Shown in pieces: positions 9,001 to 33,000 of a stretch of DNA of 64,000 nucleotides. Every line of letters begins with the position of its first letter. Position 1 is the first letter of the stretch. The stretch spans positions 20,212,001-20,276,000 of the forward strand of contig NC_135253.1 of NCBI RefSeq assembly GCF_964204865.1, read 5' to 3'. Position numbers: made by a program. This DNA comes from Styela clava (taxonomy: Eukaryota).

Positions 9001-12000
9001 GTTGCTGTTCATCCACATGAACAATTTGTATATATTAGTCAAACTATATGCGTGTATTGGATAAATTTGCCATATAATAAGTCCCACTTTATGCATGGAA
9101 ATTACACAAACTAACACAAGGTTAAATTAAAGTCCTAACCATACAGTCTAAAATACTATGAAACAGATATTTAGTTGGCATGCAGTTAGTAAGATCAAGT
9201 TAATATGTGCATGATTTGCAGACATAACACCATATACTTTTGTTACCATAACTAAGTTTGCTCAACGTTAAAAGGCCAATGTGGACAAAACCTCTGAGAT
9301 TTTCCCCACTCATGATATTACAGTTAATTGTATTCTTTAGTGTTTTATCCCTTAACATCAAACTCAATCGTGCCACAGATATGCTGCTTGACTTCAGTGA
9401 TATTACTCAGGTGAACATTATATTTTGAAAGCTTTTTTGTTGGTTTGGAGCCTAGATGTACTCAGGGTTGAACTAACCAACAACACCACACAAGTATTGA
9501 ATGCTTAATTACAAATTACCAGTTTGAAACCTTCCTTCAATATTAACGATAGACAGAGAGAGCTACATTATCTTTTATTCTAAATAAAGTTCGCCAGTTA
9601 ATTAAAGTTATCAGCTGACTAAATTTTTTTCAGCAATTGGCAATGCATAAATAACTAAGAATGTTCTCTTTCTAGGTCAATGTTTTTACTCTGGGAAAAG
9701 CCTTTCTAGTACTGGCCAAAGAGCTTCATATACACCTACCTGTACTGGGTAAGTTTCGTTTGTGATTAAATACTAGGAGTATTATTAATTGAATAAAGTG
9801 GAGCAAGGTGGCGTGAACACTAAGTTTTTTATTCAATTGCACATCACTGCCTAAATTAACTGAGACCAGGTGGTATATTACACTCAAAATGTCGTTTGCG
9901 CACTTCAGAGCAGTGTCTTAACCTAGAAATACAAGCTCGTGTTTTCTGTTTTTCTAGCGACCACCCTGTATCAGGACAATGTAATTGCTTTTAAATTAGG
10001 ACTAGCTTTTTTCTATAAGTATCTTCATTTAATTACTAAGACCCATCCATACTTTGACAAAATAGAGCCATTGGTTTAGGAATGTATATTTTATTTAAAT
10101 AGGAAACACTGACAAACACTAAAACATTTCAGACACACACTGAATAATAGTAAAACTTGGCAAAAGCAGGCAAAGCACCATAAGTAATGAAAAATTAGGT
10201 TGTTGAATAGCAAATATGAATAAATTCGGTTTCAAACAGTACTATTATAATCAAATATTTGGGGGTAATGGGCAATACAGGGATGTGCGACCTTTAATAC
10301 TGGAGGGCCTGATACAAATACCTGGGCCGCACCTTTATTTAACATAGGCTTTAATTTTACGTTATTATTTACGTTAATTTTATGTTATTATTTACGTTAT
10401 TAATCTTATAACATGCGCTGTTCGCGTCGAACAAGCTAGCTATTAGGGAATTGCAACGTCATTGGTATGGATAATAAATTGGGACCTAGGTATAGGTTCG
10501 CAACGCAAAAAGGGGTTGGAATTAATAAACTCGTGTCGCGACTCGCGGGCAGCACTTTGCCAAAGATCAATATCAATTTAAGAAAATTCGATTTTTATAT
10601 GTATGCAAAAAAGATGATGCTGAAATTATTCGGAACAGTGTATGAATAAATTAAACATTTGCTGTGTTCGCAATTCAAGATTCAAAGGTATTTTAACTAA
10701 GCACCAGACATTATCGAGAAAAAAAAAAAATATTTTAGGATATTTTCATAGCACCAAAGGAATACATAATATAACCCTTTTTGTATGGGGATGTTGGAAA
10801 AAGTATTGATGTCATTATTATTTAAAATAAGATTACAGCAATATATGGTTCAAATTAAAATACAAATAAGGGCACTCCAGAAGTGTGCGTACCAGTATAT
10901 GGAGGTAACTAATTTTGTTGCCTACTTTACATCAAGTTGTGTAAATGGACGGAATATTCGGCTATTCACAGACAGTCCGAACTCGTAATAGAACTAAAAT
11001 AAAGAAAATCGCAATAAAATTATGGCTTAACCCTAACCTGGTACACACACTACGGAAGTTACCCAAATATGTATTTGAAAACTGGCAGACAGCTTAGCCG
11101 AATAAGAACTGTCGTGCTATGCTATACGTACGAGGTCATAAATAGGAAGAAGGTAAGATGTTAGTCACTTGCAACTTATTCAGCGTTATTTTCGTTAAAT
11201 ATCTTTAGCTTTTTTGGCATGATCGCATTTGCAAGTATTGTTAAGATGCTCCTCTGTAAAATATAAGCTCTGGAATCTGTCCTCCTTGCACTCCAGTTCC
11301 TGTTAAAGAGAAGATTTGGTGAGTACCAAATACCGGTAGGCGGTTGGTTAAATAAGTAGACCTATAAGAATTTATGGAAAGAACAAGGGGTTTTAGCAGT
11401 TTGACATGATTTGGGATAAACATCAGTATTTAGGCATAAACGATCGACTACGAAGGACAAGGGACATTTGAATGCAGCTCACTGTGATGATAGTGAAATG
11501 TTATAAGCATTTACAGATTGTGGTCTAATTTCGGTGCTCCCAAAATATGTGTACCAAGATGGCGCACAACCTAAACATATAGTATGTTTACCAGGTTAGG
11601 TTTATCAGGTTGTGCGCCATCTTGGAGCGCCCTAATTCCGAGTATATCTAGATATTTTCAACACACTATGTACCAGCAGTATATAAGAATGGACCACTGT
11701 TTAAGCAATTATTTGCAATTAGAAATTATGGGCTGAACCAGTTTTTATTTTGAAGGTATAGTTGTTTATTCAAACTTGTTATTACTTATCGATTTTAATC
11801 GGTAAGTATGTTGATAGGTATTTGTCTGTTTGTCTGTCTGTCTGTTAGATGCACGTGCGATTTTGCATGTGCATTCATCATATGTCGGACCAGAAGCCTA
11901 TTGATTTTGGATGAATTATGTCGTATAATTATTATTAATTAATTAGTGATGGGCCACTATGGAGTAAGAGCGATGTTTAGGGGGATCCCCTAACTTTCGA

Positions 12001-30000: not shown

Positions 30001-33000
30001 AAGTTGAAGTTATAGATAGTTATGAACCACAAGGTTCAAATGTCAAAGTTGAAAGTTCACATGAAAATGAGGAAGTTGATAATTTACCCAATAATGATGA
30101 TGACCAGCAATCTATGAAATCAGATTCAGCTCTTCTATCTCCAGAAGCATTGAATGCTCCTTTAGCTGTTTCAGGGGCATTTTTGACTGATTTAACTGGT
30201 GGGGACTGACACAAGAATCATCATACTGTTCTTGATAATTTTTGAAATGCCCGTTATGGTGAATTCTGATTATCCGGTCCTACCAAACATTTGTTTAAAA
30301 TCCGAAAATGTTTCAGACATCCAAAATTACCAATTCAAATAATTTTGAAAAGGCTTTTATGGCAACTCATGTGATCAGCCTGATTTGTAATACATGGCCT
30401 TAAAAAGCTGTTGAGTAAGCCAGGATCCATACACAGTACTGTGGAAAATTTTGTTTGTGAAGTCAGATGGACAATTTTTCAAAAGTGTATTTAATTGGAG
30501 GAATCCGTTTACCTCCATAATTAAACACTTGGGTTTTATGTTTTTTATTTTTGAACATCTGTTGGCTAATAAGAGTAAAAATACTTTTATCTGATATTTC
30601 TGTTTGTTAATATTTTGGCTAATACTGTACTATGCGGTAATAGACTCAAAACCGATCAGAACAAGTTGAACAACCATTGGTGGTCCAGAAGTGAATGTAC
30701 AAAGTGACTGAAAACTATGGGCATATTCATTCATTCATTCATGGGTATATCCACTGGGCTAACACAGACAGTTCTCGAACTCGTAATGAAACTAAAATAA
30801 GGAAAATCGGAGTAAAATTATGGCCTAACCCTCACCTGGTACACATACTGTGGGAATACTTTTTCAATATTAGAATGGTAACCTCGGTGTAGAAATTATC
30901 ACGAACACTCAGTCATTTTAATTTGATTATAAATTCATTTTTGCCATTTTCTGAAGTTCCAAGTAGAGTTCCATATAATATTTCTAAAAAAGCAAATTGA
31001 AATGAAACATTCTGAGTGTCGGGCTGTTTCACTTTATAATTCCACAAGAAGCAAATTCATCCGTGCTATTTTGAATTGTATCTAACTCAGAGAAAGGTGA
31101 GACTTTAAAAGTGAAAAGCCACAACGTCAGAAGGTTTTTAAAATCTTCATCAAAGCAAAAGGTTTTGCCCACACAGGGGTTTTAATTAAAATCTATTTTT
31201 TGATCTATTAAATTCCCATTGACTACAAATAATTCCTAATTTCTTTAGTTCTATGAGACAATTATTTTCTCATGAACCAGGTATTTTGTTTCCATTGTTT
31301 GATAACAATGAATCCATTATTTGATTGTTGTAATTCAATCTTTCTTTGTTTACAATATCAACAAAATCCAAACACTTTCATTCATTCAGGATTAGCGGTA
31401 CTCCTGTGTGTGTACCAGGTTAGGGTTAGGCCATAATTTTATTCCGATTTCTTATTTAGTTCTTCAACGAGTTTGGTGACTGTCTGTGTTAGCCAATTGA
31501 ATATCCCCCCTGCCCTTAGATTTCAGTCCATTTATACAACTTGATGTAGAATAGGCGAACAAAATTAGTTACCTCCATATTGTTACACATACTTCTGAAG
31601 CGCCAGATCGGATGGTCAATCTTATTTTTTATGACACTTCTCCGCATCCTTTCGCCGGGGTTCATATGTTATAATTCATAATAACTGCGGAAGCAATAGC
31701 ATAGCATTTAAAGTGCTGTTCAAAGTAGTGTGCCACCACCTCACTCTGGCTCAATTGAGCATGCCAAACTGGAAACATGACAATCCCTTCATAACCTGAA
31801 AGTTCCCTGTTTATAAATGCCAGATTGCACGGAACCTTGCTCAGAGTAGAGATGCCTTGAAATTTTGTTAGAATTATATATTTTAGGACTCCATACTTTT
31901 TATTAAAGCCTTTTACTCTTTGATTCAAATTTGCACATTTTTAGAACTTTGCCTTAAAAGATTAATGATACTTTTGCAGAATATGTCTGCTATTTCACTG
32001 TGAATCTTTTCTATTTTATTGATTTATCATAATCAAATACAGAAAGCAAAAATCATTGCAATTCGTGTAATGTTTGTCATTGCGTGTTTGAAGTTTACCA
32101 TGTTTAAAACGTCAGGATGTTTGATATTGCACCAGGATATTAATATTTTAAATAAGCTTTGAGATGTATCATAGTTTTGTCAAATGAATCCTGTACACAC
32201 ATCAAGCTATTATATTTAAACGGAGTTGAAACATTCTAGAATAATCCATTTTTGTAAATTTCTTAATCGCTCTCTTGTCGCTGCTCGATGACTGGTCTTG
32301 GTGTCTCGTGCCTCCCTTCATCCTGATGTTCCATATTACTTTTTGTAATAGTACTATAAGCACTATTATAGTGAGGTAGTAATATTTCTCAATATTTCTG
32401 GTTTGAAGATTGTGTTTTAGGAGTGTTTTGGTACACTTTTCGGGAGTTTGTTAGATTAGTTATTATAATTTTTCATCGTTTTTAAAGTCAAATATTTTTC
32501 ATTTCCAGATCCATGCATGTACATCACACGTTTCGCTCATCGAATGGATTTCGGGGATAAAACAAATGAAGTCGGTGTGGCTGCTATGAGACTAGTATCT
32601 CGAATGAAGCGTGACTGGATACACACTGGTCGAAGACCTTCAGGTCTATGTGGCGCCGCACTACTGGTTGCAGCAAGATTACATGGTTATTCTTGTACGC
32701 TGAAAGATGTTGTTAGAGTAGTGAGAATTGGACATGACACAATACGTAAAAGGTTATTCTTGTTTCTACAGATTTGTTTCTATCATTGTGATAAGCCCAT
32801 GCAGTAAATAGTGTTTTAATCAGGCAGGGACATAGCCAGAAAATTTTCCAAAGGGGGGATTCTAAGATTTCTAATTTCCAGTTTAGACCGCAACAGGTAG
32901 TAGGTCCGGCCGAAAACCTGGATTTCAAGAGTCTTTCGGGTTTAAAAAGCATTTCAAGTTACAAAAAATTGCATGTTATCATACAGAAAAGAAATTTTTT

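What the first reader, a model, noticed from the sequence alone, without database searches (positions are those of the whole stretch)
9749..32508. One BRF1 intron hosts three complete protein-coding genes in both orientations
Seen: BRF1 exon 5 (ending ...LPVL) joins exon 6 (DPCMYITRF) across 22,760 nt, while the other BRF1 coding introns are under 1.5 kb. This intron holds BTBD3/6 (-), MGME1 (-) and an unknown gene (+). MGME1 and the unknown gene diverge from a shared ~5.6-kb region. Inference: transcription of the Pol III initiation factor must cross three transcription units, which could couple their expression through interference or premature polyadenylation.
Basis: partly seen in the sequence, partly recalled or inferred. 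Interest (0 to 1): 0.65.

Follow-up and report, generated by a model that had tools for sequence, protein, structure and literature searches.

The report
Three genes nested in BRF1 intron
In a sea squirt genome, one long intron of the BRF1 gene holds three other intact genes; nested genes are common, but one of these also sits in the matching BRF1 intron in humans, so that pairing looks very old.

Summary
The window is not human. It is ascidian DNA, Styela clava or a very close relative. BRF1 (+) has 15 coding exons. Exon 5 ends at 9748 and exon 6 starts at 32509, with a GTAAGT donor, a CAG acceptor and a split codon G|AT = Asp179. The intron is 22,760 nt; the other 13 coding introns are 265-1442 nt.

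The intron holds three genes:
- A 10-exon BTBD3/6 gene (-, 18498-11241).
- A single-exon MGME1-like gene (-, 20216-19260).
- A 5-exon uncharacterised conserved gene (+, 25890-30209). Its ATG lies 5,673 nt from the MGME1 ATG.

Their coding spans fill 55% of the intron. Repeats found within the window fill 9%.

The new point is that a published human variant table places BTBD6, antisense, in the BRF1 intron after c.544. This looks like the same phase-1 position, so the BRF1/BTBD pair appears to predate the tunicate-vertebrate split.

Surveys of mammalian nested pairs mostly find no such relationship.

Verdict: an ordinary host/nested locus containing one unusually old pair.

The parts
6524..41392 (+). 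BRF1 (TFIIIB 90 kDa subunit) coding region, the host gene, with 15 coding exons: 6524-6704, 7086-7160, 8603-8776, 9379-9410, 9676-9748, 32509-32752, 33551-33693, 34470-34529, 35195-35377, 35656-35837, 36791-36862, 37908-38015, 39110-39421, 40278-40419, 41334-41389, then stop TGA at 41390-41392.
   Evidence: tblastn of S. clava P0005 gives 94-100% identity per exon. The exon lengths sum to 2037 nt = 679 codons (my arithmetic), which equals the length of P0005. Pfam finds Zn_Ribbon_TF in exon 1, TFIIB repeats in exons 3 and 6, and the BRF1 TBP-binding domain in exon 13.
9676..9748 (+). BRF1 coding exon 5 (...VNVFTLGKAFLVLAKELHIHLPVL plus G). It ends in phase 1.
9749..32508 (+). BRF1 coding intron 5: 22,760 nt, donor GTAAGT, acceptor TCATTTCCAG, phase 1.
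   Evidence: It is 15.8 times the next largest BRF1 intron.
32509..32752 (+). BRF1 coding exon 6 ((D)PCMYITRF...IRKR), the second TFIIB cyclin repeat.
   Evidence: (PF00382, E 1.6e-20).
11241..18498 (-). Nested gene 1, a BTBD3/6-type BTB-BACK-PHR protein of 485 codons in 10 coding exons: 18498-18398, 17649-17483, 17130-16983, 16675-16474, 16143-15898, 15083-14965, 13913-13792, 13264-13123, 12226-12075, 11299-11244, then stop TAA at 11243-11241.
   Evidence: S. clava P0124 ('BTB/POZ domain-containing protein 3-like') maps over residues 1-485. All 9 introns are GT-AG with fitting phases. Pfam finds BTB, BACK and PHR. Identity to named vertebrate BTBD6/3 proteins is 62-68%.
19260..20216 (-). Nested gene 2, an MGME1-like PD-(D/E)XK exonuclease. 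It has 318 codons in one uninterrupted ORF, with stop TGA at 19262-19260.
   Evidence: P0001 is 100% identical; the S. clava 'MGME1-like' paralogue P0002 is 61%. PDB chains named MGME1 match at E about 1e-39 over residues 103-312. The Pfam PDDEXK_1 match is weak, at 19.3 bits against a cut-off of 22.
20217..25889 (.). A 5,673-nt divergent spacer between the MGME1-like ATG and the ATG of the + strand gene. It presumably holds both promoters. No coding or RNA feature was found in it.
   Evidence: length. Seven stop-to-stop ORFs of at least 70 aa in it have no Pfam match. No tRNA or Rfam hit. It contains one interspersed-repeat copy (24388-24618) and one two-copy repeat (24961-25170).
25890..30209 (+). 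Nested gene 3, an uncharacterised conserved protein. The 5 coding exons are 25890-26046, 26703-26848, 27669-27892, 28844-28999 and 29558-30206, then stop TGA at 30207-30209, giving 444 codons. The last exon carries a module found in other animals (MxGxxxKxHxKY..L..IA..G.KI, PxSxPR, KTxIPTAD).
   Evidence: The representatives search gave 9 hits, 7 of them at E <= 1e-10. The spliced orthologue P0191 (431 aa) maps to all 5 exons at 60-88% identity. The 4 GT-AG introns have fitting phases. The exon lengths sum to 1332 nt (my arithmetic). There is no Pfam match and no PDB relative. The Atlas model of relative P0195 has pLDDT 0.35.
18499..19259 (-). A 761-nt spacer between the MGME1-like stop and the BTBD ATG, which lie on the same strand. 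An AATAAA starts 7 nt after the MGME1 stop.

Best explanation
This is an ordinary host/nested-gene locus in an ascidian (Styela clava or a close relative). BRF1 coding intron 5 is long because it holds three independent, intact protein-coding genes, not because of repeats or a mis-join.

Shown: the exon structures, the splice signals and phases, and the intactness and family identity of the genes.

Inferred: each nested gene has its own promoter. The two antisense genes would start at their own 5' ends, and the sense gene would start in the 5.7-kb divergent spacer. RNA polymerase II transcribing BRF1 reads through all of them, and the whole 22.8 kb is removed as one phase-1 GT-AG intron.

Inferred from a published human variant table plus orthologue numbering: a BTBD3/6 gene lying antisense in this very intron position is ancestral to tunicates and vertebrates. 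A gene enclosed in an intron can only be separated from its host by two breaks within that intron, so it tends to stay there. The MGME1-like gene and the uncharacterised gene are further occupants whose age is open.
For: - The junction 9748^32509 has GTAAGT...CAG and a split Asp codon.
- The S. clava protein P0005 is collinear across the junction.
- 23 of the 23 BRF1 orthologues I examined, out of 120 listed, have the peptide contiguous.
- BTBD: 485 of 485 residues map to 10 exons with 9 GT-AG introns, and Pfam finds BTB, BACK and PHR.
- MGME1-like: an intact 318-codon ORF that matches PDB MGME1 chains at E about 1e-39.
- Third gene: 5 exons conserved at 60-88% identity with the spliced orthologue P0191.
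- The coding spans of the three genes total 12,532 nt, 55% of the intron. Repeats found within the window cover 2,155 nt.
- The window has no N and even composition. The MGME1-like protein is recorded on a contig of 25.4 Mb.
- Human: in PMC12052365 (table passages), one variant is both BTBD6 c.642C>T (synonymous) and BRF1 ENST00000547530.7 c.544+2810G>A (intron_variant). The complementary bases mean opposite strands. c.544 = 3x181+1, so that exon ends in phase 1 of codon 182. Vertebrate BRF1 proteins whose N-terminus is MSSRVC... have the Asp of DPCLY at residue 182. The ascidian exon ends in phase 1 of Asp179, at coding nt 535.
- A human region is labelled 'BRF1/BTBD6' in PMC13115854 (passage).
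- PMC7540406 (passage) reports that S. clava genes tend to have one large intron.
Against: - No transcript evidence was available. P0005, P0124 and P0191 may be computational models, so the junction and the nested gene models rest on homology, splice signals and reading-frame arithmetic.
- The human comparison rests on one annotation table in a paper. The step that human Asp is residue 182 comes from frog orthologues and my recall of the human N-terminus. No human BRF1 chain appeared in the PDB search.
- No other tunicate, amphioxus or vertebrate genome could be inspected, so independent insertion of a BTBD gene into the same intron in two lineages is not excluded.
- Own promoters for the nested genes are assumed, not shown.
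Confidence: 0.85

Rival explanations
1. Functional coupling. BRF1 read-through represses or is repressed by the nested genes. Alternatively, the poly(A) site of the sense-strand nested gene truncates BRF1 transcripts, so that the four genes are co-regulated through interference.
For: The geometry requires read-through. One nested gene is on the sense strand, so its 3'-end signals lie in the BRF1 pre-mRNA. Interference and intronic polyadenylation are documented at single mammalian loci (PMC13309782 and PMC3192792; listing and abstract starts only). Interference-driven expression divergence is reported for Drosophila nested genes (PMC5174743; abstract start).
Against: There are no expression data here. 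Most mammalian host/nested pairs show no positive or negative expression relationship, whatever the orientation (PMC11694760, passages). AATAAA density in this intron (1.7 per kb) is close to that in the other BRF1 introns (1.4 per kb). Between the sense gene's stop and BRF1 exon 6 there is no AATAAA at all, only four ATTAAA. The BRF1/BTBD pair appears to have been retained since the tunicate-vertebrate ancestor.
Confidence: 0.15
2. Assembly artefact or chimeric model. The two halves of BRF1 are joined across foreign sequence by a mis-assembly, or exons 1-5 and 6-15 are separate genes.
For: The intron is 16 times longer than any other in the gene. No read-level data were available to me.
Against: The window has no N and no compositional break. 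Exon order, strand and phase are exactly collinear with P0005 and with 23 of 23 orthologues examined. A split here would separate the two TFIIB repeats. Human BRF1 has an intron at what appears to be the same position and phase, which also holds BTBD6. The S. clava genome paper describes one large intron per gene as typical.
Confidence: 0.03
3. There are four nested units, not three. The + strand 'gene' is really two: exons 1-4 (about 228 codons, ending at an in-frame TAA if the exon-4 donor is not used) and a separate single-exon gene starting at the Met at 29565.
For: Seven of the 8 relatives fetched (P0192-P0198) begin exactly at that Met, and it is invariant in alignment A1. Reading through the exon-4 donor gives ATG TAA. 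The conserved family module lies entirely within the last exon.
Against: P0191 (431 aa) joins the two parts at the same residues (...HRMDRM|YYMNGAP...). The donor GTAAGT and acceptor TTCTGTTCAG are canonical and the phases fit. Proteins in that library may be ORF calls on unspliced contigs, which must start at a Met. P0195, for example, runs on into about 150 unrelated residues.
Confidence: 0.25
4. Origin of the MGME1-like gene: it is a later intronless duplicate, perhaps a retrocopy, that landed in an already long intron. It is not an ancestral neighbour of BTBD3/6.
For: The CDS has no intron. S. clava has a second MGME1-like protein, P0002, at 61% identity. Nested genes typically arise by insertion of short, young duplicates into long introns (PMC5174743; abstract start).
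Against: 61% identity means the duplication is old. Human MGME1 (20p11.23; PMC4581235) and BTBD3 (20p12; PMC2480480) lie on one chromosome arm. That would fit an ancestral BTBD3/6-MGME1 linkage split by the vertebrate genome duplications. This is a post hoc observation. That BTBD3 and BTBD6 are duplication paralogues is my recall.
Confidence: 0.4

Closest known systems
Human BRF1/BTBD6 host-nested pair at 14q32.33
   Same: A BTBD3/6-family gene lies antisense inside a BRF1 intron. The intron follows a phase-1 exon end just before the DPC(L/M)Y peptide: c.544 in human (PMC12052365 table passages) and coding nt 535 in the window.
   Different: From the +2810 and -8283 offsets in that table, the human intron seems to be roughly 11 kb. 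That is my inference and assumes the same downstream exon. The passages I saw mention no other nested coding gene there. The ascidian intron also holds an MGME1-like gene and an uncharacterised gene. Several human BRF1 transcripts treat the BTBD6 site as 'upstream', which suggests internal BRF1 promoters. Nothing comparable can be seen in the window.
Mammalian host/nested gene pairs in general (for example MCPH1/ANGPT2; PMC11694760)
   Same: A complete gene sits inside a long intron of another gene, in either orientation. The paper says such pairs cover over a tenth of genes and that nested genes lie preferentially in a long intron (passages and a section title).
   Different: Only 25-31% of such pairs with orthologues in both species keep the configuration between human and mouse. 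The BRF1/BTBD pair appears to be shared between an ascidian and human. Here one intron holds three genes.
H13/Mcts2 and L1-type intronic interference loci
   Different: In those loci the effect was measured. Here no expression or 3'-end data exist, so it is only a possibility.
Ancient metazoan microsyntenic pairs (Irimia et al. 2012, PMC3514665)
   Same: A gene pair kept adjacent across phyla. The paper counts 197 such pairs in Ciona intestinalis and 600 in human (passage).
   Different: BRF1 and BTBD do not occur in the main text (0 occurrences each). The pair lists are in supplements, which I could not open. Cis-regulatory constraint, which is that paper's explanation, is untested here.

Membership tests
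BRF1 / TFIIIB 90 kDa subunit | N-terminal TFIIB-type zinc ribbon | tested here: met
   Exon 1 matches PF08271 at E 1.7e-10, 40.7 bits against a cut-off of 29.
BRF1 / TFIIIB 90 kDa subunit | Two TFIIB cyclin repeats | tested here: met
   PF00382 matches exon 3 (E 1.2e-17) and exon 6 (E 1.6e-20). Exon 6 also aligns to yeast Brf1 chains at residues 178-258.
BRF1 / TFIIIB 90 kDa subunit | C-terminal Brf1 homology (TBP-binding) domain, which separates BRF1 from TFIIB and BRF2 | tested here: met
   PF07741 matches exon 13 at E 2.5e-07, 31.3 bits against a cut-off of 25. All 679 residues of S. clava P0005 are accounted for.
BTBD3/BTBD6 subfamily | BTB, BACK and PHR domains in that order | tested here: met
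   Pfam run exon by exon finds BTB (two exons), BACK and PHR (two exons). The order follows P0124.
BTBD3/BTBD6 subfamily | Closer to BTBD3/6 than to BTBD1/2 | tested here: inconclusive
   Among the 67 hits, every source name that specifies a paralogue says BTBD6, 6-A, 6-B or BTBD3-like. None says BTBD1 or BTBD2. Identity to named vertebrate BTBD6/3 proteins is 62-68%. No tree with BTBD1/2 as outgroup was built.
MGME1 (mitochondrial genome maintenance exonuclease 1) | PD-(D/E)XK nuclease core homologous to MGME1 | tested here: met
   phmmer against PDB finds four distinct MGME1 sequences at E 9e-40 to 1e-38 over query residues 102/103-312. The ..LDC.. and ..DWK.. stretches are identical in the printed alignment. 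Pfam PDDEXK_1 alone is below its cut-off, at 19.3 bits against 22.
MGME1 (mitochondrial genome maintenance exonuclease 1) | One-to-one orthologue of vertebrate MGME1, with mitochondrial targeting | not tested
   At least two S. clava paralogues exist (P0001 and P0002, 61% identical). No tree or targeting prediction was made.
Host/nested gene pair | The whole nested gene lies within one intron of the host, with no shared exon | tested here: met
   All coding exons of the three genes lie within 11241-30209, inside intron 9749-32508. UTR ends are unknown. The nearest CDS ends are 1,495 and 2,299 nt from the BRF1 exons.
Tunicate operon (MGME1-like to BTBD, same strand) | Same-strand genes with almost no intergenic space, with the downstream gene SL trans-spliced (features recalled from Ciona work) | tested here: inconclusive
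   The strand is the same, but 761 nt separate the stop from the next ATG. An AATAAA starts 7 nt after the upstream stop. Trans-splicing cannot be tested without transcripts.
Ancient conserved microsynteny / genomic regulatory block | The same gene pair linked in several distant lineages, with conserved non-coding elements | not testable with these tools
   Only two lineages could be compared: the ascidian and human (from a paper). No eukaryotic genome collection was on hand.

The most novel reading that the evidence does not exclude
The ascidian intron preserves a pre-vertebrate gene nest. BRF1 already hosted an antisense BTBD3/6 gene, with MGME1 beside it, in the common ancestor of tunicates and vertebrates. 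After the vertebrate genome duplications, one copy of the region kept BRF1 and BTBD6 (human 14q32.33) and the other kept BTBD3 and MGME1 (human 20p). On this reading the arrangement has been held by selection, through shared regulatory DNA or antisense or read-through coupling between the Pol III factor and its guests, and not only by the difficulty of extracting a gene from an intron.
Probability: 0.15. Interest if true: 0.55.

Novelty: new member of a known kind. Interest (0 to 1): 0.3.

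Why it matters
Nested genes are routine in animal genomes, so the locus itself changes little.

Two things make it modestly useful:
- It is a clean, compact case. One intron of an essential Pol III factor gene (BRF1's essentiality is my recall) carries both antisense and sense guests, in an experimentally tractable chordate group. Interference or premature polyadenylation could be measured directly there.
- The BRF1/BTBD3-6 pair seems to occupy the same phase-1 intron in an ascidian and in humans. Host/nested pairs are often not conserved even between human and mouse (25-31%). 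A pair this old is a good test of whether nesting persists through constraint or through simple entrapment.

It also shows that a long S. clava intron can be long because it holds genes. This is relevant to the reported 'one large intron per gene' pattern.

Tried and rejected
- Naming the third gene failed by every route. Pfam gave nothing for its last exon at E <= 0.01, nothing for P0191 at E <= 1, and only one sub-threshold chance hit among 8 relatives. PDB phmmer gave only E about 1 noise. The Atlas did not hold the window's exon or P0196.
- A search for further genes or RNAs in the intron found none. Ten other ORFs of at least 70 aa have no Pfam match above noise. The only tRNA or Rfam hit in the window lies outside the intron.
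- Repeat expansion as the cause of the long intron is rejected. Only 2,155 of 22,760 nt are repeated within the window, and the only tandem repeat there is 49 nt long.
- Poly(A) hexamer counts as a test of premature termination are uninformative in this AT-rich DNA.
- Literature on a BRF1/BTBD6 nesting or synteny statement: searches found no paper that discusses it. I found only tables and eQTL or methylation reports that treat the two as overlapping or neighbouring.
- Residue numbering for human BRF1 could not be confirmed from the PDB. Only yeast Brf1 and archaeal TFIIB chains matched.
- An operon reading for MGME1-like to BTBD is left inconclusive because of the 761-nt spacer.

Full report
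**What the window is.** The window is 64,000 nt with 36% G+C and no N, and its composition is even throughout. It is not human. Every BRF1 exon is 94-100% identical to a Styela clava protein, P0005 ('transcription factor IIIB 90 kDa subunit-like', 679 aa). The BTBD exons match S. clava P0124 ('BTB/POZ domain-containing protein 3-like', 485 aa). I therefore take the window for S. clava or a very close relative, an ascidian. The window's MGME1-like protein is recorded on a 25.4-Mb contig.

**Checking the observation.**
- Exon 5 encodes ...VNVFTLGKAFLVLAKELHIHLPVL and ends at 9748 with one extra G.
- The intron starts GTAAGT at 9749 and ends ...TTTCCAG at 32508.
- Exon 6 starts at 32509, so the split codon G|AT gives Asp, followed by PCMYITRF.

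Residue-by-residue tiling of P0005 on the window gives 15 coding exons and 14 GT-AG introns. The introns measure 381, 1442, 602, 265, 22,760, 798, 776, 665, 278, 953, 1045, 1094, 856 and 914 nt (the short fourth exon was found). By my arithmetic the exon lengths add up to 2037 nt = 679 codons, which equals P0005. The large intron is 15.8 times the next largest, and the median of the others is 798 nt. I picked 23 BRF1 proteins from the 120 listed, ranging from sponges to vertebrates. In all 23 the peptide across this junction is contiguous, so no coding exon is hidden in the intron. Pfam finds the zinc ribbon (exon 1), both TFIIB repeats (exons 3 and 6) and the Brf1 TBP-binding domain (exon 13).

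**What the intron holds.**
1. A BTBD3/6-type gene lies on the minus strand. It has 10 coding exons from 18498 down to 11244, with its stop at 11243-11241. All 9 introns are GT-AG, at 307-1051 nt. All 485 residues of P0124 are accounted for. Pfam finds BTB, BACK and PHR domains. Identity to named vertebrate BTBD6/3 proteins is 62-68%. Among the 67 hits, no source name says BTBD1 or BTBD2.
2. An MGME1-like gene lies on the minus strand as one uninterrupted ORF of 318 codons (20216-19263, stop 19262-19260). It matches PDB chains named MGME1 at E about 1e-39 over residues 103-312, and the LDC and DWK stretches are identical in the printed alignment. The Pfam PDDEXK_1 match alone is below its cut-off. 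S. clava has a second MGME1-like protein, P0002, that is 61% identical.
3. A gene on the plus strand carries no family name. The one exhaustive profile search, run with its long last exon, gave 9 proteins at E <= 0.001, 7 of them at E <= 1e-10. The best, P0191 (431 aa), is a spliced sequence that maps to five window exons at 60-88% identity. The exons are 25890-26046, 26703-26848, 27669-27892, 28844-28999 and 29558-30206, then TGA. The four introns are GT-AG with fitting phases. By my arithmetic the exon lengths sum to 1332 nt = 444 codons.

The three coding spans total 12,532 nt, 55% of the intron. The spacers measure 1,495, 761, 5,673 and 2,299 nt. Ten other ORFs of at least 70 aa in the intron have no Pfam match above noise. 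The window's only tRNA or Rfam hit lies outside the intron. Only 2,155 nt of the intron are repeated within the window, mostly copies of a 200-250-nt interspersed element.

**The third gene.** The conserved module lies in the last exon. Its motifs are an N-terminal MxGxxxKxHxKY..L..IA..G.KI, then PxSxPR and KTxIPTAD, followed by an acidic tail. Some non-ascidian-like relatives end in RSVTF(L/I/V)TE. To my eye this resembles a PP1-docking RVxF motif, but that is a recalled resemblance and was not tested. There is no Pfam match and no PDB relative. The Atlas model of relative P0195 is essentially disordered, with pLDDT 0.35.

Seven of the 8 relatives fetched start exactly at the Met at 29565. 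Reading through the exon-4 donor gives ATG TAA. So the plus-strand locus could be two units, which would make four nested units in all. P0191 and the canonical, in-phase splice sites favour a single gene. Relatives that start at the Met may simply be ORF calls on unspliced contigs.

**Comparison with what is known.** Nested genes are common. A mammalian survey reports that host/nested pairs involve over a tenth of genes and that nested genes lie preferentially in a long intron. It finds no positive or negative host-guest expression relationship for most pairs, whatever the orientation. Of pairs with orthologues in both species, only 25-31% keep the configuration between human and mouse (PMC11694760, passages). 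The S. clava genome paper states that its genes tend to have one large intron (PMC7540406, passage).

The unexpected result concerns human BRF1. In a variant table in PMC12052365 (passages), one variant is annotated both as BTBD6 c.642C>T (synonymous) and as BRF1 ENST00000547530.7 c.544+2810G>A (intron_variant). The complementary bases put the two genes on opposite strands. Since c.544 = 3x181+1, that exon ends after the first base of codon 182. Vertebrate BRF1 proteins with an MSSRVC...-type N-terminus have the Asp of DPCLY at residue 182. The ascidian exon ends after the first base of Asp179. That human Asp is residue 182 rests on those frog proteins and on my recall of the human N-terminus. 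The PDB search returned no human BRF1 chain to check it against. Another paper labels a human region 'BRF1/BTBD6'. Others treat the two genes as sharing eQTL or methylation signals.

My reading is that a BTBD3/6 gene lying antisense in this same phase-1 BRF1 intron predates the tunicate-vertebrate split. I found no paper that says so. Searches found none, and the main text of Irimia et al. 2012 has no occurrence of BRF1 or BTBD.

**How it most likely works.** Shown: four intact genes in a host/guest layout, with canonical splice signals. Inferred: the guests use their own promoters, Pol II transcribing BRF1 runs through them, and the 22.8 kb is spliced out as one intron. The persistence of the BTBD guest is explained most simply by entrapment, because removing it requires two breaks within one intron. 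Regulatory constraint is possible but untested.

It is documented at single loci (PMC13309782 and PMC3192792; abstract starts only), but it is not the rule in mammals. Hexamer counts do not discriminate between the two views. There is no AATAAA on the + strand in the 2.3 kb between the sense guest's stop and BRF1 exon 6, only four ATTAAA.

**Origin of the other guests.** The MGME1-like gene has no introns and has a paralogue, which fits the usual route of young duplicates landing in long introns (PMC5174743; abstract start). Against that, human MGME1 (20p11.23) and BTBD3 (20p12) share a chromosome arm. That would fit an ancestral BTBD3/6-MGME1 linkage divided by the vertebrate genome duplications. 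I rate the two origins about equally likely.

**What was left out or unchecked.**
- Spliced models were searched exon by exon. Full-length statements therefore rest on the database proteins P0005, P0124 and P0191 and on exon arithmetic.
- No eukaryotic genome collection was on hand. Synteny in other species therefore stayed unchecked.
- Cluster look-up and structure prediction were unavailable. Two of the three Atlas calls failed.

**Verdict.** The locus is an ordinary kind of feature, a new member of a known kind. It contains one noteworthy element, an apparently very old BRF1/BTBD3-6 host-guest pair.

Noticed in passing
window 3399-3470 (-): tRNA-Cys(GCA), the only tRNA or Rfam hit in the window (69.8 bits). 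This Pol III-transcribed gene lies about 3 kb upstream of the BRF1 start codon, probably by coincidence.
   Followed up: no
window 5352-5807 (+): Single ORF with a GNAT Acetyltransf_CG domain (PF14542, E 4e-24). It ends about 700 nt upstream of the BRF1 ATG at 6524, on the same strand.
   Followed up: no
window 59825-63935: Satellite array with a 371-nt unit, 11.2 copies and 82% matches, running almost to the window's end.
   Followed up: no
window, e.g. 4655-4906, 10871-11068, 15482-15724, 17707-17939, 24388-24618, 26888-27102, 30739-30872, 31388-31609, 35930-36188, 41761-41943, 43295-43540: An interspersed repeat of about 200-250 nt, with up to 11 matches per copy within the window. At least seven copies lie in the large intron, several of them inside introns of the nested genes. 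It has no Rfam match. It is probably a SINE or MITE.
   Followed up: partly
window 43852-47925 (+), 51618-52340 (-), 53779-54417 (-), 59163-59456 (-): Neighbouring genes downstream of BRF1: ORFs from 43852, one of which (47602-47925) weakly matches the DCAF4 beta-propeller (below Pfam's cut-off); a single-ORF CYTH-domain protein; an SSSCA1/autoantigen-p27 ORF; and a G-patch exon. From recall only, human DCAF4 and the CYTH enzyme THTPA are on chromosome 14, like BRF1. That would fit old macrosynteny.
   Followed up: no
window 30210-32508 (+): There is no AATAAA on the + strand in the 2.3 kb between the stop of the sense-strand nested gene and BRF1 exon 6, only four ATTAAA. The intron as a whole has 39 AATAAA. 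This is post hoc and may be chance.
   Followed up: partly
window 36980-37135: A 50-nt tandem repeat, 3.1 copies, inside BRF1 intron 11.
   Followed up: no
protein P0004, Branchiostoma floridae C3YGR0: A 1246-aa amphioxus model that carries BRF1 and TFIIB Pfam domains together with RING, B-box and NHL-type domains. It looks like a merged prediction of BRF1 with a neighbouring or nested TRIM-like gene. That hints that amphioxus BRF1 also has a guest or a close neighbour.
   Followed up: no
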